A stretch of DNA of 64,000 nucleotides from Camelus dromedarius (Eukaryota), in assembly GCF_036321535.1 (NCBI RefSeq), contig NC_087436.1:76324001-76388000 (forward strand). The letters are read 5' to 3'. Below the pieces are notes generated by a model. The model was not told the DNA's origin. It did not search any database and saw nothing but the letters and a program-made list of their open reading frames with translations. Positions 1,531 to 63,771 of the stretch are shown piece after piece (the stretch's first letter is position 1; each line of letters begins with the position of its first letter). Position numbers and translations under genes: made by a program.

Positions 1531-1554
1531 TGTTCTTGTCCTTGTCTCCACAAA

Positions 1555-2430
1555 ATGAGGTAAAATTTCAAAAGAATTATAACTAAATCTCAATAGGGAC
1601 TTTAAAGAACTTGACAAGGTGATTTTAGAATGTATATGAAAGAGCAAAGGTTTCAGAATAACCAAGACACCACTGAAGAAAATGAAAAATATGTGGGAAC
1701 ATGACCTACTAGACACCAAAACTACTCATCAGAGTTAAAAAGAGGCATTTCATGATGATAAAAGATCAGTTCATCAACAGGGCAGAATTATTCCAGAGGT
1801 TTATACAGCTAATAACAGACTTCAAAATACATGAAGCAAAAACTGATAGAAGTGAAATAGTTTTCAATTACAGCTGGAGATTTTACTGTTTTTCTCTCAA
1901 TAACTGATAAAACATATAGGCAGCAAATCAGTAAGTATGTAGAACACTTGAACAGTACTATCAAACAACCTTCCCTTATTGAATTTATGTAACAGTTTAT
2001 CCCCAAACATCAGAATCTATAGTGCACATGGTGTAGTTACCAAAATAGACCATATTCTGGGCCATAAAACAGATCAATAAATGTAAGAAGATTTAAATTG
2101 TACAATGTGTATTCTCTGACCATAATGGAATTAAGTCAGAAATAAATAACAGAAGATCCTGGAACATACCCAAATATTTGGAAACTATACAGTGCATTTC
2201 CAAATATCTTATTGTTCAAAGAAGAAATCACAAGGGCAATTAGGCAGTATTTTGAATTGAATATATTAATACTTAAAAAAACAGTGATGTTAATAATATT
2301 TATATTGTTATCATTCTTAGATTGGGTGGTGGGTTCACAAGTGTTTGCTTTGTTATTATGCCCTAAGGCTCTAATATATGTTACATATATACTTCAGTGT
2401 ATTGAAAATACACAATTAAAAGATAAATGA
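1555..2430 (+). mobile_element. Old L1 ORF2 fragments and 3' end
   Basis: Degenerate endonuclease-region sequence (gaccatattctgggccataaaaca, attctctgaccataatggaattaag). Confidence 0.75.
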
Positions 2431-2980: not shown

Positions 2981-3306
2981 TCCTCTTTGATTTCATCATT
3001 GATCCACTGGTTTTTTAGTAGCATGTTGTTTATTCTCTATGCAGTCATTTTTTTCTTTCTCTTTTTGTGGTTGATTTCTAGTTTCATGCCATTGTGGTCA
3101 GAAAATATGCTTGAAATAATTGCTATCCTCTTAAACAACAAGGTCCTACTGTATAGCACAGGGAACTATATTCAATATTTTTTATTCAATATCCTAAAAT
3201 GAAAAAGAATATATATGTATATGTATAACTGAATCACTTTGCTGTACACCAGAAACTAACACAACATTGTAAATAAACGAAACTTCAATTGAAAAAAAAA
3301 AGAGAG
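2981..3306 (+). mobile_element. 5'-inverted, truncated cetartiodactyl-type L1
   Basis: Antisense ORF2 piece joined to a sense 3' end (caacaaggtcctactgtatagcacagggaac) and poly(A); 14-bp TSD at 2967-2980/3307-3320. Confidence 0.85.
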
Positions 3307-7826: not shown

Positions 7827-8272
7827 TTTTTAAAAAAATTGAAGTATAGTTGACTTACAATATTAGTTGCAGTTTTACGAGTGATTCAATATTTTATAGA
7901 TTAGATATCATACAAAGTGATTACATTACTATTCACCATATTGCCTGTGCTGTACATTACATCCCCGTGACATACACCTTAACCCCCTTCACCTAGTTCT
8001 CTCATCCCCTGCCCCGTTCCCTCTGGTAACCACTAGTTTGTTCTCTGTGAGTCAGTTTCTATATTGCTATGTTTGCTCATTTGTTTTGTTTTATAGATTC
8101 CATGTGTAAGTGAAATCATACAATATTTGTCTTTCTCTCTTTTACTTATTTCACTAAGCATAATACCCTCCAGGTCCATTCATGTTGTTGCGAATGGCAA
8201 GATTTCATTCTTTTTTATGGCCAATATTCCATGGTGTATATATATGCCACAACTTTTGTATCCATTCATCTG
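7827..8272 (-). mobile_element. L1 3' end fragment
   Basis: aattgaagtatagttg...ctctggtaaccactagtttgttctc...tccattcatctg. Confidence 0.85.
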
Positions 8273-22505: not shown

Positions 22506-22701
22506 TTTTTTTTAATTTTATTTTTTGTTGAAGTATAGTTGATTTATAATGTTAGTTTCAGGTGCACAGCAAAGCAATTCAGTTATACATATACAAACAT
22601 ACATATTTTCTTTTCAGATTCTTTTCCATTATGTTATTATAAGAAATTGAATATGGTTCCCTGTGCTATACAGTAGGTCTTTGTTGTTCATCTATTTTAT
22701 A
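22506..22701 (-). mobile_element. Short cetartiodactyl-type L1 3' end inserted in an L2 tail
   Basis: ttgaagtatagttgattt...ttccctgtgctatacagtaggtc; flanked by tcattcattc on both sides. Confidence 0.85.
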
Positions 22702-22826
22702 TCATTCATTCATTTTTTCATCCATTAATTCATTTATATGTTCAATAAATATTAATTGTGCATCTTCTAGACACTAAGAAACAGCAGTGAACCAAATAGA
22801 CAAAAATCTCTGCTTACATGAAGCTG

Positions 22827-31134: not shown

Positions 31135-31902
31135 CATTAGTGTCCTCTTTTTTCTCTTTTTCTTAGATTCCATGTGTAAGTAATATCATATGGTATTTTT
31201 CTTTCTCTTTCTGGCTTACTTCACTTAGAATAATCTCTAGGTCCATCCATGTTGCTGCAAATGGCATTATTTTATTCTTTTTTATGGTTGAGTACTATTA
31301 TCCCATTGTATATATATGTACCACAACTTCTTTCTCCAGTCATCCATTGATGACATTTAGGTTGCTTCCATGTCTTGGCTATTGTATATAGTGCTGCTCT
31401 GAACATTGGGGTGCTTGTATCTTTTTGAATTAGAGTTCCCTCCGGGTATATGACCAGGAGTGAAAAAAAGAAAAAAAGAGGACACTAATGAAATCATCTA
31501 CAAAACAGAAACAGACTTGCAGACATAGTAAACAATCTGATGGTTGCTGGGGCAAAGAGGGTGGGAAGGGGTAAAGTTGGAAGTTTGAGATTTGCAAATG
31601 TTAGCCACTATATATAAAAATAGATTAAAAAACAAATTTCTTCTGCATAGTACAAGGAACTATATTCAATATCTTGTAATAACAATTAATGAAAAAGAAT
31701 ATGAAAATGAATATATATGCATGACTAGGACACTGTACTGTACACTAGAAATTGACCCACTGTAACTGACTGTAATTCAATTTAAAAAAAAAAGTTAAAA
31801 TCAAAGTAAATATGATAAACATGGTAGTTTCTATTCTCAATACTCAAGGATGAAAGACTAAACAACAGAAAAGTAACATTAAAATTCACTAAATGCAAAA
31901 AA
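31135..31902 (+). mobile_element. Young camelid-type L1, 5'-inverted, with probable 3' transduction
   Basis: Antisense segment 31135-31462, sense 3'UTR 31463-31793, extra 103 bp, second poly(A), TSD AAAAGTTATGA. Confidence 0.85.
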
Positions 31903-46709: not shown

Positions 46710-49454
46710 TAAATGTTTTTTGGAGGTATAATATATATATAATATATATAATCTAATAAACTGCCACATATTTAAAGTGTTCAATTTGATTAATTTTGAC
46801 AAATATATTCACCCTTGAAACATCACCTAATTAGTATAATGAACATATTCATCCCTCCCAGTTTTCTTTGTGCCCCTTTGTAATCATGCCTCCTTCTCCT
46901 TCCTGCCCACTCCTCATTCCCATCCCTCTGACACTCCCCCAGTTTTCCAGTAGCCGCTGATCTGCTCTCTGACATTAAATAATAGTTTGCATTTTCTGCA
47001 ATTGCATATGAATGGAATCAAACACTATGTATATACTCCTTTTTGTCTGGCTTATTTCTCTCAACTTAATTATTTTAAAAGTCATCTATGTTGTGTGTAT
47101 CAGTAGTTGCTGGGTAGCCTTCCGTTGTATGGACATCCCATGGTTTATCTGTTTACCTGCTGGCGGACACTTGAGTTATGTCCAGTTTTTGGCTATAACA
47201 AGTAAAGTGCTATGAACAAATCTTTGTATAGACATGTGTTTTAATTTCTCTGGGGTAAATACCTAGGATAATGTGATAGATGTTTATTTAGTTCTTTAAG
47301 AAACTACTAAACTGTTCTCTAAAATGTTTGTAATCATTTTACATTTTCAGTAGAATCATATGGGAGATTCAGTTCCTCTTAAGTCTTTACCAAACTTGAT
47401 ATGTTTTTTCTTTTTAATTTTAAGCATTCTAATCAGTGTGTAGTTATATCGCATGCAGTTTTTCTTTCTTAATATGGTGAAGTATATTAAGACATAATCA
47501 CACTGATTCATTATCCTAGCTTTACATTCCTCCCTGTTGGTCATAATGTCTTATCCTTTTTAGGTATTTTTAGATTAATTTGGTAAAAATTTTGTAAAGA
47601 ATATTGACCTGCAGATTTTTGTTTTTTTTTGGTAATCTTTGGTGTTTGTATCGGAATAATGCTGTCATCTTGGCCACATAGAATGATTTTGGAAGTGTTT
47701 CTTCCTTTCCAGTTTTCTGGAAGAGTTCCTGTAGGATGGGTGTTTTTTCTTCATCATTTGAGCCATTTGGGCTTGTAGTTTTCTGTGAGAAGATTTTAAA
47801 TTAGAAATTCAATATGTCTTATAGATATAAAGTCATTCAAGTTATCTGTTTTTTCTTGAGTTTTGGAAGGTTGTGTTTTCAAAGGAATTTGTTCATTTCA
47901 TCTAAGTTGTCAATTTACTGGCATGAAGTTTTCACAATATTTCTGTATGTTTCAGTATCTTTAGGAGCTATAGTGATATCACTATCATTTCTGATAGTGA
48001 TAATTTTTGTCATCCTTCTGTTTTCTCTAGTCCAGTCTAGGCTTAAAGTTAATCAATTTTTTATTTATACAAAAACCAACTTTTGGTTATATTGATTTTT
48101 GTTATTGTTTTTCTATTTTTATATCATTGATTATTGTGTTCCTCACTATTAATTTTCTTCTACTTACTTTGTGTTTAATTTGCTATACTGTTTCCAGTTT
48201 CTTAGGATAGAAGTTGAGGTTGAAACCTTGTCTCTCTTCTAATATAGGCCTTTCGTCCCAGAAATTTCTAAGTGCTGCTTTTGTAGTATCTCACAAATTT
48301 TGATATGTTGTATTTTCATTCCAAATATTTTCTATTTCTTTTTATATCTTCAACTCATGGATTATTTAAAAACTTATTTACTTTCCAAATATTTGGGGAT
48401 TTCTAGAAACCTTTTATTGATTTATAATTCTAAAGTGCTCAGACAGCATACTTTATATGAAATCCTTTTAAATTCATTGAGACTTGGTTGATGGCCTAAA
48501 TGAGGTCTACTTTGGTGAATGTTTCATAATGCATTTGAAAAGAATATGTATTCTCCTATTGTTGGGTGGTATGTTATATGTTAAGTTGGTAGTATTGTTC
48601 AAATCTATATCTTATTAGTCTATATATTCTATTAAATGTGGAGGAGATGTTGAAATCTCTTAGTATAATTGTAGATTTATCTCCTTTTTCTTTCGGTTCT
48701 GTCAGATTTTACTTTATATATTTTGCTACTCACTATAAAAAAAAAACCGAAGGGCAGAATGGAGAAGCTCTGTTATTAGCTGTATAAATATTTAGGATTG
48801 TTATGTTTCTTTAATGAATTGATGCTAATTTATTATTGCAAAATGACCTTGTCTATCACTGATAACATTCTTTGCTCTGAAATTCGCTTTCTGATATTAA
48901 CATAGCCACTTCAGCTTTCTTTCCATTAGTAAGAGTATGGTATATCTTTTTTTAATCCTTTTTCTTTTTGACTATTTTTTTTTCTGAAACATGTTCCTTG
49001 GAGGCAGTATATAGTTGAGTCTTTTTGATCTAATGTGACAATCTTGCCTTTTGAGGTATTTAGACCATTTATATTTAATGTGCTTACTGGTGTTGTTAGG
49101 TTTAAATATATTTTCCTACTATTGTTTTCCATTCTCCTATCTATTTTTTTTTTCCTTTTTCATCTGTTTCCTGCCTTCTTTTGGATCAAATGGATATTTT
49201 TATAGTTCTGGCTTATGTACCTCATTTTGCTTATCAATTTTAACTTTTTGTTTTGTTTTTTTAGTATTTAAAGTATTTAATTAGCAGTAATTCAAATGAT
49301 ATTATACCACTTCCCATATAGTATATGAACCTTACAATATTACACTCCCATTTATCTACTTTCAACTTTTTTTTTTGCTATTTTTGTTTTCTTTTACATA
49401 TGCTTAAACTCCATACTATATTATTAGTTTTGTTTGAGCAACCAGTTCTCTTTT
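46710..49454 (-). mobile_element. Ancient L1 (L1MC/L1MD-like): 3' end, ORF2 remnants and inter-ORF region; left half of the element hosting GK2
   Basis: Antisense L1 3'UTR at ~46710-47450. The ORF at 48926-49132 gives TLNINGLN..IYCLQ, the start of the ORF2 endonuclease. Confidence 0.8.
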
Positions 49455-50364
49455 CCTGCTTGAAAATAGTGCTTACTGTAGTATTCCACAGCTTTTTCCT
49501 TTTTTTCCCCCAGCATATATCCAGCTAAAGCAATTAAATAAAAACGTTAAGGTGTAAGAAATTTAGTTGAAATCATAACACACTTTTTTTTACCAACATA
49601 AACTATACTTAAACTTTAAATGCCACCTCTTTTTAAAAAAAGTTTCTTCTGATAAATAGTATGCATACTCATTGCTCTAAAATATGTATAAATGTTTACC
49701 CTAAAATATTTGTGTATGTAGTGGTCCAGCTAACACTACCCTTCATATAACTTACTTTATAAATAGACTACTCTGTATGAAGTATATAAGCATATATGTT
49801 AGACATACCAAGTAAAGTACATAAAATGGAAAGATGAAAAGAAAAAAAAACAAAGGAAAACACGTCCTTCTCAGTATAGGATCTACACAGCAAATCAGTG
49901 TAATTAAAATGTAAAATGTATGAAGAATTTTACTTGACAAATATGTTCCTGGAAAATATCTAACCTATGAGAAAACTAAGTTTCTACTGTAAAAAAAAAA
50001 AATTATGTTTCCATTATACATTCAATGATGGTATTGTGGTTTTCCTAATATGTACAAAGGAGGACTTTGGGGTCCATTAAAAATGATGACAACTGTAACA
50101 AGATGGCCTTCAGTTTTAGCAGGTTAGTCACACCTCTTAATCAAGAGTGTGTAGCAGAAAACCAAATCCTGGTCCGTAAGTGTTAGAAAATGTTTGATGA
50201 AGAATTCCACAGGCAGAATATGAATATTCTACATTTTAGAGGGCGTGGAGCAGGAGGATTTCATGACCGTGGAGAGGGTTAACTCCCAGTGGCTGACCCG
50301 ACTTTAACTGCCCATGTTAAAAAAACACATCAAATGTTTCTAGAGTGCTTTCTGTTGTAATTTG

Positions 50365-50370
50365 TTTATT
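50365..50370 (-). terminator. GK2: Candidate proximal polyadenylation signal (AATAAA) of GK2
   Basis: TTTATT on the + strand ~165 nt downstream of the stop codon. Confidence 0.55.
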
Positions 50371-50533
50371 TCTAGCCACAGGTCTACTTGTAGGGTTTTC
50401 ATAAGTCACACAGCAATTGGTTTATAAATAAAATCAGAGTCTGTGATAGCGTCATCACATTAAGAGACAGAATTGCTGGATTTTTTTCATTTTGTGAAAA
50501 GCTCACTTCTTGGGAATCCAGGCTTGGTTGTTA

Positions 50534-52195
50534 TTATGGTATACCTGAGATGTATCTTGCTCCAATTAACATTATTATGCTACTCACTATAAAAAAACCC
50601 AAGGGCAAAGTGGAGAACATAGTGGGTTCATTACTTTCAGGAGACTGAGCTGTAACCCAACCCATTGACTTCATCACGGCTTTCTTCCATGTAGAATAAC
50701 GAATTTCACTTTCTGTGGCCTTGATCTGTGGTTCAAACCGTTCCATCATGACAGTTGACAAATCCTCAGGTTTAAGACTCCAAACGTTCACCCCTTCTGC
50801 AGCCCCTGCTGCCATGGCAGCTCCCAGTGCAGATGTTTCAGGCATAGAGGCTTTTATTACTGGAATATGCAGAATGTCTGCTTGCAGTTGCATAAGAACT
50901 TTGTTGTTGGTCATTCCTCCATCCACTTGCAAATGACTGAGTGGAATTCCACAGTCACGGTTTATGGCATCCAAAATCTCTCGGGTTTGGAAACAAATAG
51001 CTTCTAATGCTGCAAAAGCAATATGGCTTTTATTGGTGAACTGAGTGAGACCACAGATTATCCCTCTTGCACTGGGCTCCCAATAAGGTGCGTATAACCC
51101 CGAAAAGGCTGGGATGAAGTAGCAGCCGTAAGAAGTACCTACTTCTTTAGCAAGTTTTTCACTTTCTTCTGAGGTCTTTATAATTCCAAGATTGTCTCTT
51201 AGCCAGCGAATAACAGCACCAGCTATAGCAACAGAACCTTCCAATGCATAACATGCTGGCTTGTCTTTGCCTAGTTTGTAAGCCACTGTGGTCAGAAGGC
51301 CATGTTCAGAAAACACACACTTGCGACCTGTATTACATAGTAAGAAACAGCCAGTTCCATATGTGTTTTTGGCTTGTCCTTCATGGAAGCACATTTGTCC
51401 TACTAATGCAGCGGACTGGTCCCCCAAACACCCAGATATTGGCACACCTTCTAAGGTCCCAGTTTTCATTTGGCCATAGATCTCAGAAGAGCTCCAGACA
51501 CTTGGAAGAATGTCCATTGGAATTTCAAAAAAGTCACACAGTTCTTTATCCCATTGCAAAGAATGGATGTTGAAGAGCATTGTCCTACTTGCATTTGTTA
51601 CATCTGTACAATGAACGCCTCCATTAACTCCTCCCGTCAGACTCCAGATAAGCCATGAATCAATGGTACCGAAAAGAGCTCTACCTTCTTCAACAGCTTT
51701 TTGAACTTCTCTCACATTATCAAGAATCCACCGAAGTTTCACTGCACTGAAGTAAGTGCTAAGTGGAAGGCCTGTCTTGGACTTGACGAAGTTATTATTT
51801 CCTGGAATTTTTTTACTAAGATTCTCAACAGTAGACTGGGTTCTTAGATCAAGCCACGCCACAGCATTGTAGAGCGGCTCCCCAGTTAATTTATCCCAGA
51901 TCACGGTGGTTTCCCTCTGATTGCTGACACCAATAGCTTTTATGTTGGATTTATCAATATTCAGCTCTTGAAGCTTCTGGCATGTTTTCTCTATACATTC
52001 ATAAACAGACTGAAGAATTTCCTTAGGGTCTTGTTCTACCCATCCTTCTTTTGGAAACTCTTGTGTTAATTCCACTTGATGGTGACTAAGTAGTTCCGCT
52101 GTTTTTGAATTGAAAACCAGAAAATGAGTGGAGTTAGTACTCTGGACCACTGCCCCCACCAACGGCCCCACAACTGCCTGCTTCGGAGCTGCCAT
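50534..52195 (-). CDS. GK2: Glycerol kinase 2, testis-type intronless retrogene (553 aa) with C-terminal hydrophobic tail
   Basis: Uninterrupted single-exon ORF with FGGY kinase motifs ([35 protein letters not shown]). The N-terminus [15 protein letters not shown] matches mammalian GK2 rather than X-linked GK (AVDQGT). Confidence 0.97.
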
Positions 52196-52412
52196 GAAAC
52201 CAGTCCGGCAGCTCAGCCTCTCTGGTGCCGTTTCCCGGGTGATGAGGTGTTGGTGGGGGAGGGGTGCGCAGGACGTCAGTCGGAGCGTCTGGAGCAGAAG
52301 GCGCAGGCGCAGTGACTGCGGCAGAACCTGGAGCCACTTGGGGCAACCTTTGCCGTTTAACTGGCGCTGCGTCTTCTCACTCCACCCCTCCTTTGGCCCA
52401 GACTCTGCCTCC
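52196..52412 (-). promoter_or_regulatory. GK2: CpG-rich GK2 5'UTR and proximal promoter
   Basis: Local GC/CpG enrichment; CRE-like GGACGTCA 52271-52278; NRF1-like GCGCAGGCGCA 52301-52311; MYB-like TAACTG 52358-52363. Confidence 0.7.
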
Positions 52413-54125
52413 AGCCACTCAAGTGTCTTTTAAGGCGGTTTAAGCTTTAAAAAAATCACGTATTTATTCACATAAATAGAGTTGCTTGTACTCTTCATGC
52501 TATTGTGAGGATCGATATTTTCTTACCATGTTCTTTCTGCCTGTAAGATTTCCCTCAATATTTATGATACTGTGGGTCTGTTGGAAATGAATTCTTACAA
52601 CTTTTGAACATCTGAAAAGTATTTCATCTACTACTTAAAGATGTTTTCTCTGTGTATAGAATTCTTACTTTTTTTCCTTAAAAATCAGCGCCTTGAAACT
52701 TGCTCCACCGTCTTTTGGGTTGTTCCAGGTGTGAAGTTCACTGTCAAACTTATAAGACGTCTTTATAAGTTTTTTCTCTTAATCAGTGGTTTTGTCAGTT
52801 TTATGATGCTATTACTTGGTGTAGTTTTCTTCTTTTCTGTGCTTGGAGCTGAATGAGCTGCTTAGATCTCTGGGTTTATGGATTTCATCAAATTTGGAAA
52901 GCTTTGAGCCATTATTTCTGTAAATATGTTTTATTTTCTCTCTCTCCTTTGCTTTAGGGACTCCAATTAAGTACATTGGAGTTATCCCATAGTTCACTGA
53001 TTCTCTACTCATTATAATTATAATTATCTTCTTTTTCTGTGGTTCATTTTAGTTTCCATTGCTGTATCTTCATCTACTAATGTTTTCTCCTTTGTCTAAT
53101 CTGCTATTAATTTATCTAGTGTATTTTTCAACTCGTACATTGTAGTTTTCATCCCTAGAAGTTCCATTGGATTTTTAAAAATATTTAGCTTTTTGAACAC
53201 ACGGAATGGAATACACTTAATATAACTTTTAATTTCATTTTCTGCTAATTCTAACATCTGTGGCAGTTCTGGTTCAATATTGACTGATTAATTTTCTCCT
53301 TATTATGGCTTGTATTTTTCTGCTTGCCTGATAATTTTTGATTAGGTGCCAAACATTGTGAATTTTACCTGATTGGATTGCTGGTTATTTTTGTGTTCCT
53401 ATAAACCTTGAGCATTGTTTTGGGATGCAGTTAAGTTTCATGGAAACAATTTGATTCTTTTGGGTCTTGCCTTTAAGATTTGTTAGATGAAACAAGATGG
53501 TTTTTAATCTGGGGCTAATTATTCCCCTTACCTGTGATGAAATCCTTCAATGTACTCTACCCAAGGCCCATGAAAAATGAGATTTTTATAGCTAGTGGAA
53601 ATAGTCCCTGTTCCCAATTGTATGTAAATAGTGGATACTGTTAATCTTTAGTTTTTTCATTTGCTTCTCTTCCCAGCCACGTGTAGTTTCCTCACGCATA
53701 TGCACTGATCAGTATTCAACTGAATACTTAAAGGGGACTCTAAAGCTCTCCTGAGTTCTCTTCCTATGCAACTCTTTCCTTTCTAGTACCACGTCCTATA
53801 GAATCTAGCTGCCTTTGTCTCTCTGGATGCTCAGCTTCATCTCCTCACTACAGGGTTTCCACTGGGCTCCACCTGGGTTTCCCCTCCCAGGGCCATGGCC
53901 TCAAACTCACTCATGGCAATAGGCTGGGGAAGTCATAGTATTCATGCTATTTGTCTCTTGTCTCTTAGAGATCACTGTTCTTCATTGCCTGCTATCCAGC
54001 ATCTTGTAAACTGTTACATATTTTTTGACTTATGTGAACTGTTTCATGTATTTTGTCCATTTTTTAATTGTTTCAAATGAGGATAAATCTAATCTCTGTA
54101 CTCCATCTTTGCAAGAGTGGAAATC
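52413..54125 (-). mobile_element. Ancient L1 ORF1 and 5' portion; right half of the element hosting GK2
   Basis: Antisense L1 ORF1-like sequence (gggtctgttggaaatgaattc, ttcatcaaatttggaaagctttgagccattatttc). The ORF at 52812-53012 has an ORF1-like LIGVPK..ERE segment. Confidence 0.75.
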
Positions 54126-57100
54126 TACTGAATAGAAGTTTAAATTTTCAGATTGGTTGTAAAGTTGGTGAATAAATATTTATGAAATGTCCACTCAGTG
54201 AATGGCAGTTTTCTGCATTAGGCCATAGACTATATTTTTAAGGTATCTCAAGGATGAAGCTCGTTTATCCTTAGTGAAACTGACAGAACAAGATAGTACC
54301 ATAAAAATCAACAATAATATTGTTATTTTACTGTTTTAACTGGATCATATTTTCCTTTTAAGTAAGCCCTTTTAAGGAATTTTATGAAGTTAGAAAAGCA
54401 AAATTAGCAACCAGACTTAATTTGAATAGTAGGGGATTGAAATCATCAGAAGGTGGTAGTTTTTCCAAATAATATCTTTGTTAAATTTTAAAAATTTAGC
54501 CAGAGATTTTCTAAGCAAAAATTTAGAGGCAGCACTTACCAGTATGCCTGTATATCATACTGTGTTTTAATTTACATGGAACAGATTTAAAATTTTTTTA
54601 ATATTTTTTTTCTTCCCAAGTATTTGGCAGTAGTAAACATTCTATGTATAGATTAATCTACTCAAGAAAAAGATTTGACCCAAAGTTTTTTTTCTACTTC
54701 CCCTCTCCCCTACCACCCTAGTATATGCACACAAATGTTCCCAATCACATTAGTTTTTGAACCTAGGGATACTTTAAGCATTTTGTCGTTAATACAAATA
54801 ACATATATATAGTCATTAGTTCTGTTTATAAAGAACTGGTTTACAGATTACGTCCACTGTTAATAAGTTATAGCCACTAAATAATCAGATAATAAGTGTC
54901 TCTGTTTAGTTTAGAAAGAAAAGTTGACCAAATTTATTTAACTGTCTTAGAGTAATTACAAACTGTTGATGGATTTAACCGAAGCTGACTAAGTTTGTTT
55001 GTTTAAACTAAGGTTAAACTAACTCCACTATTTTTTCATTAAAAAAATTGAAAACATAAAATCTTTTGATTGTTAGTCTATAATAGCCTCACTGTATTTT
55101 AATTTAAGCACATCTGAAATAATCATTGAAACTACCTTACTTTTTAAGACATTATACTTTACAAGGAAGTTGCTTTATTTGTATTATATTCCACACAAAT
55201 GCAAATTTGTTAATTCAGTAGTTAGACAAATATACATGGGCTCTATTTTAGGCAATAATATAGCGATGCATAAAACATTCTTCCTACTGTTACATCTAAG
55301 AACAATCCTGACTAAGTTTACTTGTGTATATTGACATATCTTCCTTTGCACATCTTGTTTTAGAGAGCCATTCATTTAATTATTATTTTTCTCCTGTCAA
55401 GCCCACCAAATTATAAGTTCAATGAGGGCAGGTATTTTGGCTGTATTATTCAATCTTGTACCTTCAGCATTTAGAACCATGCCTGACCCTAAGCAGAAAC
55501 TCAAGAAATATTTATTGAATGAGTTAATGAACACCATTATATATGATTCTCACTTTAATTATCATAAAGTCAAGTTAATTTTAATTTTGATTGTTGAATG
55601 CACTATTGGTTGTTCATTTTACAATCTAATATGTTAAGGTAGATTGATGAATAGATAAAAGGATGGATAAATGAAAAACTATATGATAAAATTAGTATAG
55701 TAAAATATTAATTGTAGAATCTGTAGAATCCGTGTGATGGATAAAATGGTGTTGTTCTTTTAACTTTTCTCTAGTTTGCAAATTTTTATAACAAGATACT
55801 GAGAAAATGTAATGCAAATAAAAAGCTGCAAAACAGTTAGTAGAGATCTATTTCATACAGTTTCTTTTGTTTGGAGGGATAGTTAAAAAGAATAAAGGCG
55901 TCAATAACAAATTTATGTTAATTTGAGAGATTCTGTGGTGGCATAATCTACCTAGAGTTGTTCTCCTGAAGAAAACCATTCATTGTGAATCATTATTGTA
56001 GGAAATTTTTTTCCTGCCTTTTATAAAACTTGTACATCTTAGAAAGCCAACTGCAGGTTTAACTCCTTGGCTTTTAACAAGAAATATCAGGCATTGAAGA
56101 ATGCTGTTACTCTTTTCAATCTCTGATGAGTGGGGATCAGTTTTAGAAGTTTTGATTTCACCAAATTTATACATATCTTGTCTTGAATTTGAGAGTGTGT
56201 ACCCTGATGGTAAGGGCATTGAATTATATAGTTTGTGACTAGGAAATTTAACATTTTTTAGATTGTGTCATGACCAATGTATCATCACAGTTGGTAATCT
56301 TCAAAACAGTGATGCATTTTTCTACATGCTGTTCCCAAATGTGCTGGACCAGCTGTTGAGAGCCATGCCATCCAATCGCCTGGAAGACCTCTTCGTAGAC
56401 CACAAATCACCTAACGTACTATCCCTCTTTGTTCTAATAAAGAATGGAGAAATTAAAGCAAGCTACCGTGGTTTATTGCTCATGTTTTCTCTGTTAAGCA
56501 TGGGCTGTGGGAGTCACTGCATCCGCATTAGGAGGCCTTGGCATTCTAGGCAAGCACTCATAACAGACGAGCCAATGAGTTTAATATTCACAGCCATGAA
56601 AGTGATTGTTTGCTTGAATGCTTGAATCTTGAAATTTTTGATTGTGTATGTGTGTATGTGTGCGTTCTTTGTCATTTTCCCAGTGAAAATTGCCCTGACA
56701 CTGATCTCAATGTTAATGTATTCCTGCTTACATTTGACTTTGGAATATGTTATGGCTAATTATCATTACACAGGATGAAAGATCAGAGCCCTGAGTGAGG
56801 TGCTTGGGTTTAGGAACAAAGGGAGGCCAATTCAGCATCCTGGCTCTAGGCCCAACAATTGTAATCCAGCATCTTGAAACTGGTGGGGTCTTTGCGTCTA
56901 TTTTTTTTTTTTCCTTTTTCTCCCTCACTTTTTGAAAGGGGGTAGGGGAAGGGGGTTAAGGGTTTGAAGGGGCTGAAATTTCCCCTTGAACATGATGTCA
57001 ATATGTTGGCATGTCTCCTTTTATTAAGATGCCATCCAACTGATAACAAGTCCTGCTGTGTTTTACCAACATAAAAAATTAGACTGGAGACCGAGGAGCG

Positions 57101-62149: not shown

Positions 62150-63771
62150 AATCACATTGATTGATTTGCAGGTATTAAAAAACCCTTGCATCCCTGAGAT
62201 AAATCCCACATGACCAAAGTGTATGACCCTTTTAATGTATTGTTGAATTCGGTTTGCTGATATTTTGTTGAGGGTTTTTGCATCTATATTCATCAGTGAC
62301 ATTGGCTTGTGATTTTTATTTTTTGTAGTGTCTTTGTCTTGTTTTAATATCAGGGTGATGCAGGCCTCATAGAATGTGTTCAGAAGTGTTCTTTCCTCTG
62401 CAAATTTAACAAGTAGTTTGAGAAGGATAGGAATTAACTCTTCTCTAAACGAATGAAATTAGAACATTCTCCAACACCATATAGAAAAATAAACTCCAAT
62501 ATAAATTATAGCAATATTTATTTGCATCTGTTTCCTAAAAAAAGTAAATAAAAGCAAAAATAAACAAATGGGACCTAATTAGACTTAAAAGCTTTCACAC
62601 AGCAAAGGAAATAATCAACAAAATGAAAATACAGCCTACTGAATGGAAGAAAATATTTGTAAATGATATGACTGATGAAGGGTTAATGTCCAACATATAT
62701 AAAACAGCTCATACAACTCAACATCAAGAAAACAAACAACCTGATTAAAAGATGAGTGGGAGAACTGGATAGACATGTTTCCAAAGAGGAAATGCAGATG
62801 GCCAACAGGCACATAAGATGCTCAACATTGCTAATCATCAGGGAAATGCAAATCAGAACCACAATGAATTATCACCTCACACCTGTCAGAATGGCTATAA
62901 TCAAAAAGAAAAGAAATAATAAACATTGGCAAGGATGTGGAGAAAAGGGAACCCTTGTACATCATTGGTGGGAATATAAATTGGTGCTGCCACTGTGTGA
63001 AACAGCACTGAGGTTTCTTAAAAAACTAAAAATAGAGCTACAATATGATCCAGCAATTCCACTTCTGGCTATATATCTGAAAAAACAAAAACAAAAACAA
63101 AAACAAAAACACTAATTCAAAAAGATACATGTACCCCAGTGTTCACAGAAGCATTATTTACAAAAGCCCAGATATTGAAACAACCTTAGTATCCATCAAC
63201 AGATGAATGGATAAAGATGATGTGGTATATAGGTATATATGTATGTATGTATATAGGTGTATGTGTGTGTGTGTATATATATACACACACATACACATAT
63301 ACACAATGAAATACTACTCAGCCATAAAAAGGAATGGAATTTTGCCATTTGCAGCAGCATTGATGAACTTGGAGGGCATTATGCTAAGTGAAGTAAGTCA
63401 GACAGAGAAAGACAATGTATGATGTCACTTATATGTGGAATGTAAAAAATACAACAAACTAGTGAATAAAATGAAAAGGAAGCAGACTCACAGATACAGA
63501 GAACAAGCTAGTGGTTACTAGTGGGGAGAGGAAATGGGAGGGGTGAGATGGGGTAAGGGAGTAACAGGTAGACACTATTAGGTATAAAATAAACTACAAG
63601 GACATATTATACAACATGGGGAATATAGCTCATATTTAATAATAACTATAAATGGAGTATAACCTTTAAAAGTTGTGAATCACTATATTATTGTACATCT
63701 GTAACTTATACAATATTGGACATCAACTATACTTCAGTTAAAAAAATAATAAGTAAATAAATTTGAAAAAA
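62150..63771 (+). mobile_element. 5'-inverted L1 (antisense RT piece 62150-62450; sense ORF2 C-terminus, 3'UTR and A-rich tail)
   Basis: ORFs give [21 protein letters not shown] (RT) and [12 protein letters not shown]...[13 protein letters not shown] (ORF2 C-terminus). Confidence 0.93.

What the first reader, a model, noticed from the sequence alone, without database searches (positions are those of the whole stretch)
48724..48766. A ~40-bp copy of GK2 coding sequence patched into the neighbouring L1 (templated insertion)
Seen: 48724-48766 (tgctactcactat-A10-ccgaagggcagaatggagaa) matches GK2 CDS 50578-50617 (tgctactcactat-A7-cccaagggcaaagtggagaa) at 37/40 positions plus a 3-nt A-tract expansion. 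It is in the same orientation, ~1.85 kb away, and covers the codons for the hydrophobic tail ([13 protein letters not shown]). It splits the L1 phrase tatattttg|aagctctgttattag, with short junction microhomologies (tg left, gaa right) and no poly(A) tail or long TSD. Inference: a germline break repaired by microhomology-mediated templated synthesis from the nearby GK2 DNA or its testis mRNA/cDNA. It would be a neutrally evolving snapshot of an older GK2 allele.
Basis: partly seen in the sequence, partly recalled or inferred. Interest (0 to 1): 0.72.

Follow-up and report, generated by a model that had tools for sequence, protein, structure and literature searches.

The report
GK2 patch inside old L1
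In a camelid genome, 39 bases copied from the end of the sperm gene GK2 were pasted into a dead LINE-1 element 1.85 kb away; this is a real but ordinary scar of error-prone DNA repair or replication, with no sign of function.

Summary
48724-48766 matches the GK2 coding tail (50578-50617) at 37 of 40 bases plus three extra A, far above chance. It is a net 39-nt insertion: a paralogous L1 in the window lacks exactly this stretch, and so does an independent L1-like endonuclease protein. Twenty public runs hold 0.99-1.00 of the region's words, so an assembly artefact is unlikely. The junctions carry TG (6 of 7) and GAA microhomology, with no target duplication and no poly(A).

Best reading (0.75): a DNA end primed on the GK2 strand exposed about 1.85 kb away, copied about 36 nt and switched back. 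This is a templated insertion of the MMBIR/template-switch kind, longer and more distant than typical Pol-theta insertions.

The 'older allele snapshot' mostly fails: two of the three substitutions give residues absent from 113 GK/GK2 tails, so they arose in the insert. An RNA template in cis cannot be excluded (about 0.13). Age and presence in other species were not determined. The scan noted a similar patch before on other DNA (e1-611815). Ordinary.

The parts
48726..48764 (+). Net 39-nt insertion: copy of the GK2 coding tail with 3 substitutions and an A7-to-A10 expansion
   Evidence: 39-nt gap against the paralogous L1; 13-residue gap against P0129; score 48 vs null max 37
48719..48725 (+). 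Left junction: L1 flank that matches the donor's left flank at 6 of 7 bases, last 2 (TG) perfect; proposed priming end
48764..48766 (+). Right junction: 3-nt microhomology GAA; its G is the same base as the G of the left TG in the empty site, so the break position is ambiguous by one base
50580..50615 (+). Donor segment (36 nt) in the GK2 coding tail, codons about 527-539; intact
50534..52195 (-). GK2, single uninterrupted 553-aa ORF (FGGY_N and FGGY_C); clusters with Camelus ferus and Vicugna pacos GK2
46710..49430 (-). Host: decayed L1, ORF2 side; the insert interrupts the endonuclease frame. Ends are approximate, set by eye
   Evidence: translation, alignment to paralog, P0129; ends from reading
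52420..54130 (-). Probable continuation of the same L1 (ORF1 side) beyond the 5' end of GK2. Ends approximate
   Evidence: Transposase_22 E 0.0098 and Tnp_22_dsRBD E 0.015 at 52451-53098(-), both below cut-off; ends from reading
1548..2265 (+). Paralogous decayed L1 fragment that shows the empty site (near 1823); used as the comparison
   Evidence: 69% identity over 332 columns

Best explanation
A one-off germline repair or replication accident. Shown: a 39-nt direct copy of the GK2 tail sits in an old L1 1.85 kb away, with short microhomology at both junctions, no loss of host sequence relative to a paralog, no target duplication and an intact donor. Inferred: a break or stalled strand at 48725 left a + strand 3' end; the minus strand to its right was exposed as single-stranded DNA (resection or an uncoupled fork); the 3' end annealed 1.85 kb away through 6 of 7 bases, copied about 36 nt, let go, and re-annealed at the break through its new GAA end. 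The A-tract slipped during or after copying, and the copy has since decayed neutrally. Had the first annealing been completed instead, 48726-50579 would have been deleted, removing the GK2 stop codon and 3' UTR. The patch has no function.
For: Insertion in this copy, not a consensus feature. Junction matches above chance: 0.37% of 3550 positions on the right arm match the left junction as well, 1.9% match the right, and 1 of 3550, the donor itself, matches both at this length (criteria set after seeing the junctions). The geometry is the one resection predicts: donor to the right, direct orientation, longer match at the left end. PMC7615360 (passages) gives 1-2 kb of single-stranded DNA per side of a meiotic break, on the reverse strand to its right, and an excess of structural variants within about 2 kb. 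PMC7165422 (passages) describes direct-repeat insertions made by one end copying from the other resected end. PMC8421209 (passages) finds about 100 such germline insertions of 25 bp or more per person, with microhomeology tolerated. Insert-side decay.
Against: The microhomology does not explain the choice of donor: 9 sites nearer the break match the priming end as well or better. Length and distance are atypical of Pol-theta insertions, whose templates are typically within 30 bp and whose tracts are rarely over 10 bp. The strand copied is also the mRNA-sense strand, and the empty site has a TTTT followed by GA, which resembles a LINE-1 endonuclease target (motif variants recalled; 16 such sites in 2721 nt of host), so an RNA template fits the same geometry. 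The empty state is known from a paralog and an unrelated L1-like protein, not from the orthologous locus.
Confidence: 0.75

Rival explanations
1. RNA-templated patch in cis. A nick or break just downstream of GK2, possibly made by LINE-1 endonuclease, was extended by a reverse transcriptase activity (LINE-1 ORF2p, Pol zeta or Pol theta) on the nascent or tethered GK2 transcript, primed internally, and closed by the GAA microhomology.
For: The new + strand is the cDNA strand of GK2 mRNA and the priming end is at the left, as this model needs. The empty site resembles an L1 target (0.6% of host positions; motif variants recalled). The site lies 0.7-1.6 kb past the likely 3' end (AATAAA on the minus strand at 50365). 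GK2 is testis-specific in mouse (PMC6473107, passages). RNA-templated break repair exists in human cells (PMC12065846, abstract only), and reverse-transcribed patches are described (PMC5110952, parts 1-2 of 4).
Against: No target-site duplication and no poly(A). GK2 has no intron, so nothing marks an RNA intermediate. DNA templating explains everything with a commoner process. The L1-target resemblance was noticed after the fact, on a T-rich strand (126 TTTT in 2721 nt).
Confidence: 0.13
2. By-product of the original GK2 retroposition, or a later free cDNA fragment: a piece of GK/GK2 cDNA was captured at a second break in the same L1.
For: GK2 itself appears to have landed inside this L1, between its ORF1 and ORF2 parts and on the same strand, which would explain proximity if both arose in one event.
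Against: GK2 proteins are found in elephant, armadillo, aardvark and human, so the retrogene is old, while the insert has only 3 substitutions. If as old as the host L1, 7-8 would be expected on the insert side alone (P of 3 or fewer = 0.04-0.07; weak, and biased because only well-kept copies get noticed). The insert has Ser at 528 like GK2, not Cys like the X-linked GK proteins shown. Its ATT codon at 529 is one transition from the camelid Thr codon; pig, hippo and whale GK2 have Ser there. A later free cDNA would not be expected to land so near its source.
Confidence: 0.08
3. Chance similarity, an L1 consensus feature, or an assembly artefact.
For: The segment includes a low-complexity A-tract in AT-rich DNA. 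No read-level alignment was obtained.
Against: 0 of 300 A-tract-preserving shuffles reach the score. The match ends exactly where the gap against the paralog ends. None of the 69 31-mers over the insert occurs elsewhere in the window; if they were missing from a run its share would be about 0.97 (assuming random sampling of words), whereas 13 of 24 listed runs show 1.00 and 7 show 0.99; the 6 not flagged as possible sources (two studies) show 1.00 five times and 0.99 once. A misassembly would not carry three substitutions.
Confidence: 0.02

Closest known systems
Germline templated insertions from microhomology-mediated template switching (MMB-TI; MMBIR/FoSTeS; PMC8421209, passages)
   Same: Insertion copied from an intact nearby template, short microhomology or microhomeology at both junctions, return to the original template, neutral germline variant.
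   Different: That study searched for templates within about 100 bp; here the donor is 1.85 kb away and is coding sequence of an intact gene; the event is old enough to have decayed.
Pol-theta locally templated insertions (TINS, direct-repeat class; PMC7165422, passages)
   Same: Direct-repeat geometry of one end copying from the other end's exposed strand; short first microhomology, new microhomology at the return.
   Different: TINS are 3-30 bp, templates typically within 30 bp, tracts rarely over 10 bp; here 36 nt from 1.85 kb.
Class 2 templated sequence insertion polymorphisms (TSIPs; PMC5110952, parts 1-2 of 4)
   Same: Patch without target duplication or poly(A), microhomology at junctions, donor intact, germline origin.
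   Different: TSIP donors are distant and the experimental inserts were 73-414 bp; this donor is adjacent, the patch is 39 nt, and no polymorphism was shown.
Earlier scan note e1-611815 (54-bp patch copied from 1.3 kb away into an old L1, another genome)
   Same: Same size class, distance class and kind of host, by its note.
   Different: Donor there was a SINE; here a protein-coding retrogene. An unchecked AI note, not evidence.

Membership tests
Templated insertion by template switching (MMB-TI/FoSTeS type) | Inserted sequence copies an existing, intact genomic template | tested here: met
   GK2 ORF intact
Templated insertion by template switching (MMB-TI/FoSTeS type) | Microhomology or microhomeology at the junctions | tested here: met
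   TG (6 of 7) left, GAA right; 1 of 3550 positions matches both
Templated insertion by template switching (MMB-TI/FoSTeS type) | It is an insertion into the host, with return to the original template | tested here: met
   39-nt gap vs paralog, 13-residue gap vs P0129; orthologous empty site not seen
Templated insertion by template switching (MMB-TI/FoSTeS type) | Made by a DNA polymerase on a DNA template | not testable with these tools
   intronless donor; DNA and RNA templates give the same product
Pol-theta TINS | 3-30 bp, template typically within about 30 bp of the break | tested here: not met
   36 nt copied from 1.85 kb against the ranges
Pol-theta TINS | Direct or inverted repeat of flanking DNA primed at short microhomology | tested here: met
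   direct orientation
Pol-theta TINS | Dependence on POLQ | not testable with these tools
   historical event
Class 1 TSIP / LINE-1 target-primed retrocopy | Target-site duplication of at least 5 bp | tested here: not met
   0 or 1 nt duplicated
Class 1 TSIP / LINE-1 target-primed retrocopy | Poly(A) tail after a polyadenylation signal | tested here: not met
   the A-tract is internal and corresponds to the donor's Phe-Phe codons
Class 1 TSIP / LINE-1 target-primed retrocopy | Insertion at a TTTT/A endonuclease site | tested here: inconclusive
   site is TTTT followed by GA, a recalled variant; 16 such motifs in 2721 nt of host
Class 2 TSIP | No target duplication or poly(A); junction microhomology | tested here: met
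Class 2 TSIP | Donor in a distant genomic region | tested here: not met
   donor 1.85 kb away; the rest of the genome could not be searched for a better donor
Class 2 TSIP | Polymorphic in the population | tested here: inconclusive
   20 of 24 listed runs hold 0.99-1.00 of the words; contigs show presence, not absence of an empty allele

The most novel reading that the evidence does not exclude
The patch is a fixed germline product of RNA-templated repair in cis: LINE-1 endonuclease (or another nick) cut at a TTTT/GA site just downstream of a testis-expressed gene, and the freed end was extended on that gene's own nascent transcript by internal priming, then closed by microhomology. It would be a natural fossil of transcript-templated break repair next to the source gene, and would suggest a class of short sense-biased patches downstream of germline-expressed genes.
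Probability: 0.13. Interest if true: 0.55.

Novelty: new member of a known kind. Interest (0 to 1): 0.2.

Why it matters
Little on its own: short templated insertions are a known and common class of germline scar, and this one sits in dead L1 sequence. Its modest uses: a clean example with a donor at meiotic-resection distance (about 2 kb) rather than the usual tens of bases; a low-homoplasy marker for camelid phylogeny once dated; and a case where an aborted annealing, if completed, would have truncated a gene needed for male fertility in mouse. It would matter more only if a genome-wide set of such patches showed a bias to transcribed donors and cDNA orientation, pointing to RNA-templated repair in the germline.

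Tried and rejected
No whole genome is held for this window, so other L1 copies and a possibly better donor could not be searched genome-wide. Pattern scans of viral contigs found nothing. The metagenome scan gave 10 loci, all short matches of 19-31 nt with no GK homology by tblastn, judged chance. No read-level alignment of public runs was obtained, so zygosity and A-tract length variation are open; all 24 listed runs are one organism, so one search does not date the event, and its 4 rows at 0.00 are small runs and no evidence. The endonuclease frame gave no Pfam family and no L1 structure in PDB (2 irrelevant weak hits). Of 7 hits in the representative search, 6 were large unrelated repeat or surface proteins and were dropped; only P0129 was used, and its cluster has no names. 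A target duplication around the GK2 retrocopy was sought and not found. X-linked GK as donor was rejected on the Ser/Cys position. A functional reading of the in-frame +3 A expansion was rejected: the insert has no start or promoter context and carries Phe at an invariant Leu. A paper recalled as reporting donor sites 2-6 kb from deletion breakpoints (Abyzov 2015) was not held and is not relied on. No paper held the three terms Camelus, GK2 and insertion; that is the only search for a prior report of this event, and supplements were not searched.

Full report
Observation. The 43 bases at 48724-48766 match 50578-50617 at 37 of 40 positions plus three extra A, on the same strand and about 1.85 kb apart. 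The alignment runs 5 bases further left with one mismatch (E = 3e-7 in a self-search of the window). The 39-nt core scores 48 against the donor and 28 against the next-best site; 0 of 300 shuffles that keep the A10 tract reach 48. The donor lies in the tail of an intact, uninterrupted 553-aa ORF at 50534-52195(-) with both FGGY domains, which clusters with proteins named glycerol kinase 2 from Camelus ferus and Vicugna pacos. The window is therefore camelid.

It is an insertion in this L1 copy. A second decayed L1 fragment in the window (about 1548-2265, opposite orientation, 69% identical over 332 columns) spans the same position and shows a 39-nt gap exactly at the insert (MAFFT gives 40 columns because the paralog also lacks one adjacent base). 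On the minus strand the insert adds 13 codons, two of them stops, in a frame that otherwise reads like L1 endonuclease (motif recalled). An unnamed protein with a weak endonuclease-reverse transcriptase domain hit (P0129, E 0.0019, below cut-off) aligns across the site with a gap of exactly 13 residues. The direct evidence for 'L1' is weak: this frame gave no Pfam or PDB hit, 6 of 7 hits were irrelevant, and the ORF1 hits on the far side of GK2 are below cut-off. The subfamily was not determined.

Not an artefact. Of 24 listed runs, all one organism, 13 hold 1.00 and 7 hold 0.99 of 255 sampled words of 48300-50750; 14 of these 20 are flagged as possible sources, and the other 6, from two studies, show 1.00 five times and 0.99 once. 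None of the 69 words over the insert occurs elsewhere in the window, and losing them would lower the share to about 0.97 if words are sampled at random. This is indirect; no read-level alignment was obtained, so zygosity and A-tract variation remain open.

Junctions. The left flank matches the donor's flank at 6 of 7 bases, the last two (TG) perfectly; the right has GAA, whose G is the same base as the G of TG in the empty site. No host sequence is lost relative to the paralog, at most one base is duplicated, and there is no poly(A): the A-tract is the donor's Phe-Phe codons read on the other strand. Among 3550 positions on the right arm, 0.37% match the left junction as well, 1.9% match the right, and only the donor matches both at this length (criteria chosen after the fact). 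Against a simple microhomology scan, 9 equally good or better priming sites lie nearer the break, so why this donor was used is unexplained.

Donor and direction of change. Of 122 proteins in hand, 113 tails could be parsed. Position 531 is Leu in 113 of 113; the insert has TTC (Phe). Position 529 is Ser in 107, Thr in 5, Cys in 1, never Ile; the insert has ATT (Ile). Both changes therefore arose in the insert. Thr529 is found in the three camelid proteins, a bat and aardvark, while pig, hippo and whale have Ser; ATT is one transition from the camelid ACT, a mild hint that the copy postdates that change. Position 528 is Ser as in this GK2, not Cys as in the X-linked GK proteins shown. The third difference (CTG vs TTG) is synonymous and could lie on either side. 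So the 'older allele snapshot' holds for at most one base.

Age. Two or three substitutions in 36 sites give 0.056-0.083 per site with wide limits (0.007-0.24), against about 0.20 per lineage for the L1 pair; if the insert were as old as the host, 3 or fewer has P = 0.04-0.07. At the rate used in PMC8605555 (passage: 2.5e-8 per five-year generation) that is roughly 11-17 million years (my arithmetic), older at slower rates and younger if the repair synthesis itself made errors. Camels split from other even-toed ungulates 55-60 million years ago (PMC3514880, search listing). The insert is probably tylopod-specific, but this was not shown.

Mechanism. With a break at 48725, resection exposes the minus strand to the right (PMC7615360, passages: 1-2 kb per side in meiosis). 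The left 3' end can anneal there, copy, release and rejoin, giving a direct copy of sequence from the right, primed at the left. That is what is seen, including the longer match at the left. The same geometry is described for direct-repeat Pol-theta insertions, but those are shorter and closer (PMC7165422, passages), so I file this as a template-switch insertion of the MMBIR/FoSTeS kind (PMC8421209, passages) and not as a typical Pol-theta product. A stalled fork would give the same result. Shown: copy, direction, junctions, decay. Inferred: the lesion, the exposed strand, the enzyme. Confidence 0.75.

Rivals. The exposed strand is also the mRNA-sense strand, the empty site resembles an L1 endonuclease target (recalled variant; 0.6% of host positions), and mouse Gk2 is testis-specific, single-exon and needed for fertility (PMC6473107, passages). 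RNA templating in cis is thus possible (PMC12065846, abstract; PMC5110952, parts 1-2 of 4), but there is no target duplication or poly(A), and an intronless donor leaves no RNA mark (0.13). GK2 seems to have landed inside this same L1, so a by-product of that event is conceivable, but GK2 is pan-placental and the insert looks younger (0.08). Artefact or chance 0.02.

Novelty. One search for Camelus, GK2 and insertion found no paper; supplements were not searched. The class is well known, with about 100 germline cases per person in one study, and this scan noted a similar patch in another genome (e1-611815, unchecked). Verdict: real, correctly spotted, ordinary. Interest 0.2.

Noticed in passing
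window 46710-54130: The GK2 retrogene appears to sit inside one old L1, on the same strand, between the ORF1 part (beyond 52420) and the start of ORF2 (near 49100). No target duplication was found at its ends.
   Followed up: partly
window 52130-52165 (GK2 residues 14-25): The N-terminal motif reads GAVVQST where X-linked GK has GAVDQGT. The Asp-to-Val change is in all GK2 proteins printed; the Gly-to-Ser change only in the two camelid ones printed. It fits the reported lack of kinase activity of mouse GK2.
   Followed up: partly
window 50610-50615 (GK2 codon 528): C. ferus/C. bactrianus GK2 (P0002) has Tyr where this window and alpaca have Ser; the codon lies inside the copied segment, which gives a dating test.
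   Followed up: no
window 3131-3302, 8019-8270, 22516-22702, 31159-31437, 31612-31794, 63108-63525: Dispersed repeats of 100-230 bp at 72-81% identity to one another; probably old SINE or LINE pieces, not identified.
   Followed up: no
window 52180-52380: GC- and CpG-rich stretch at the 5' end of GK2 in otherwise AT-rich DNA, probably the 5' UTR and promoter carried from the parent gene.
   Followed up: no
window 48748-48749: One of the insert-side substitutions created a CpG that is still intact, in a host with 9 CpG in 2721 nt; a faint hint that this change is recent.
   Followed up: no
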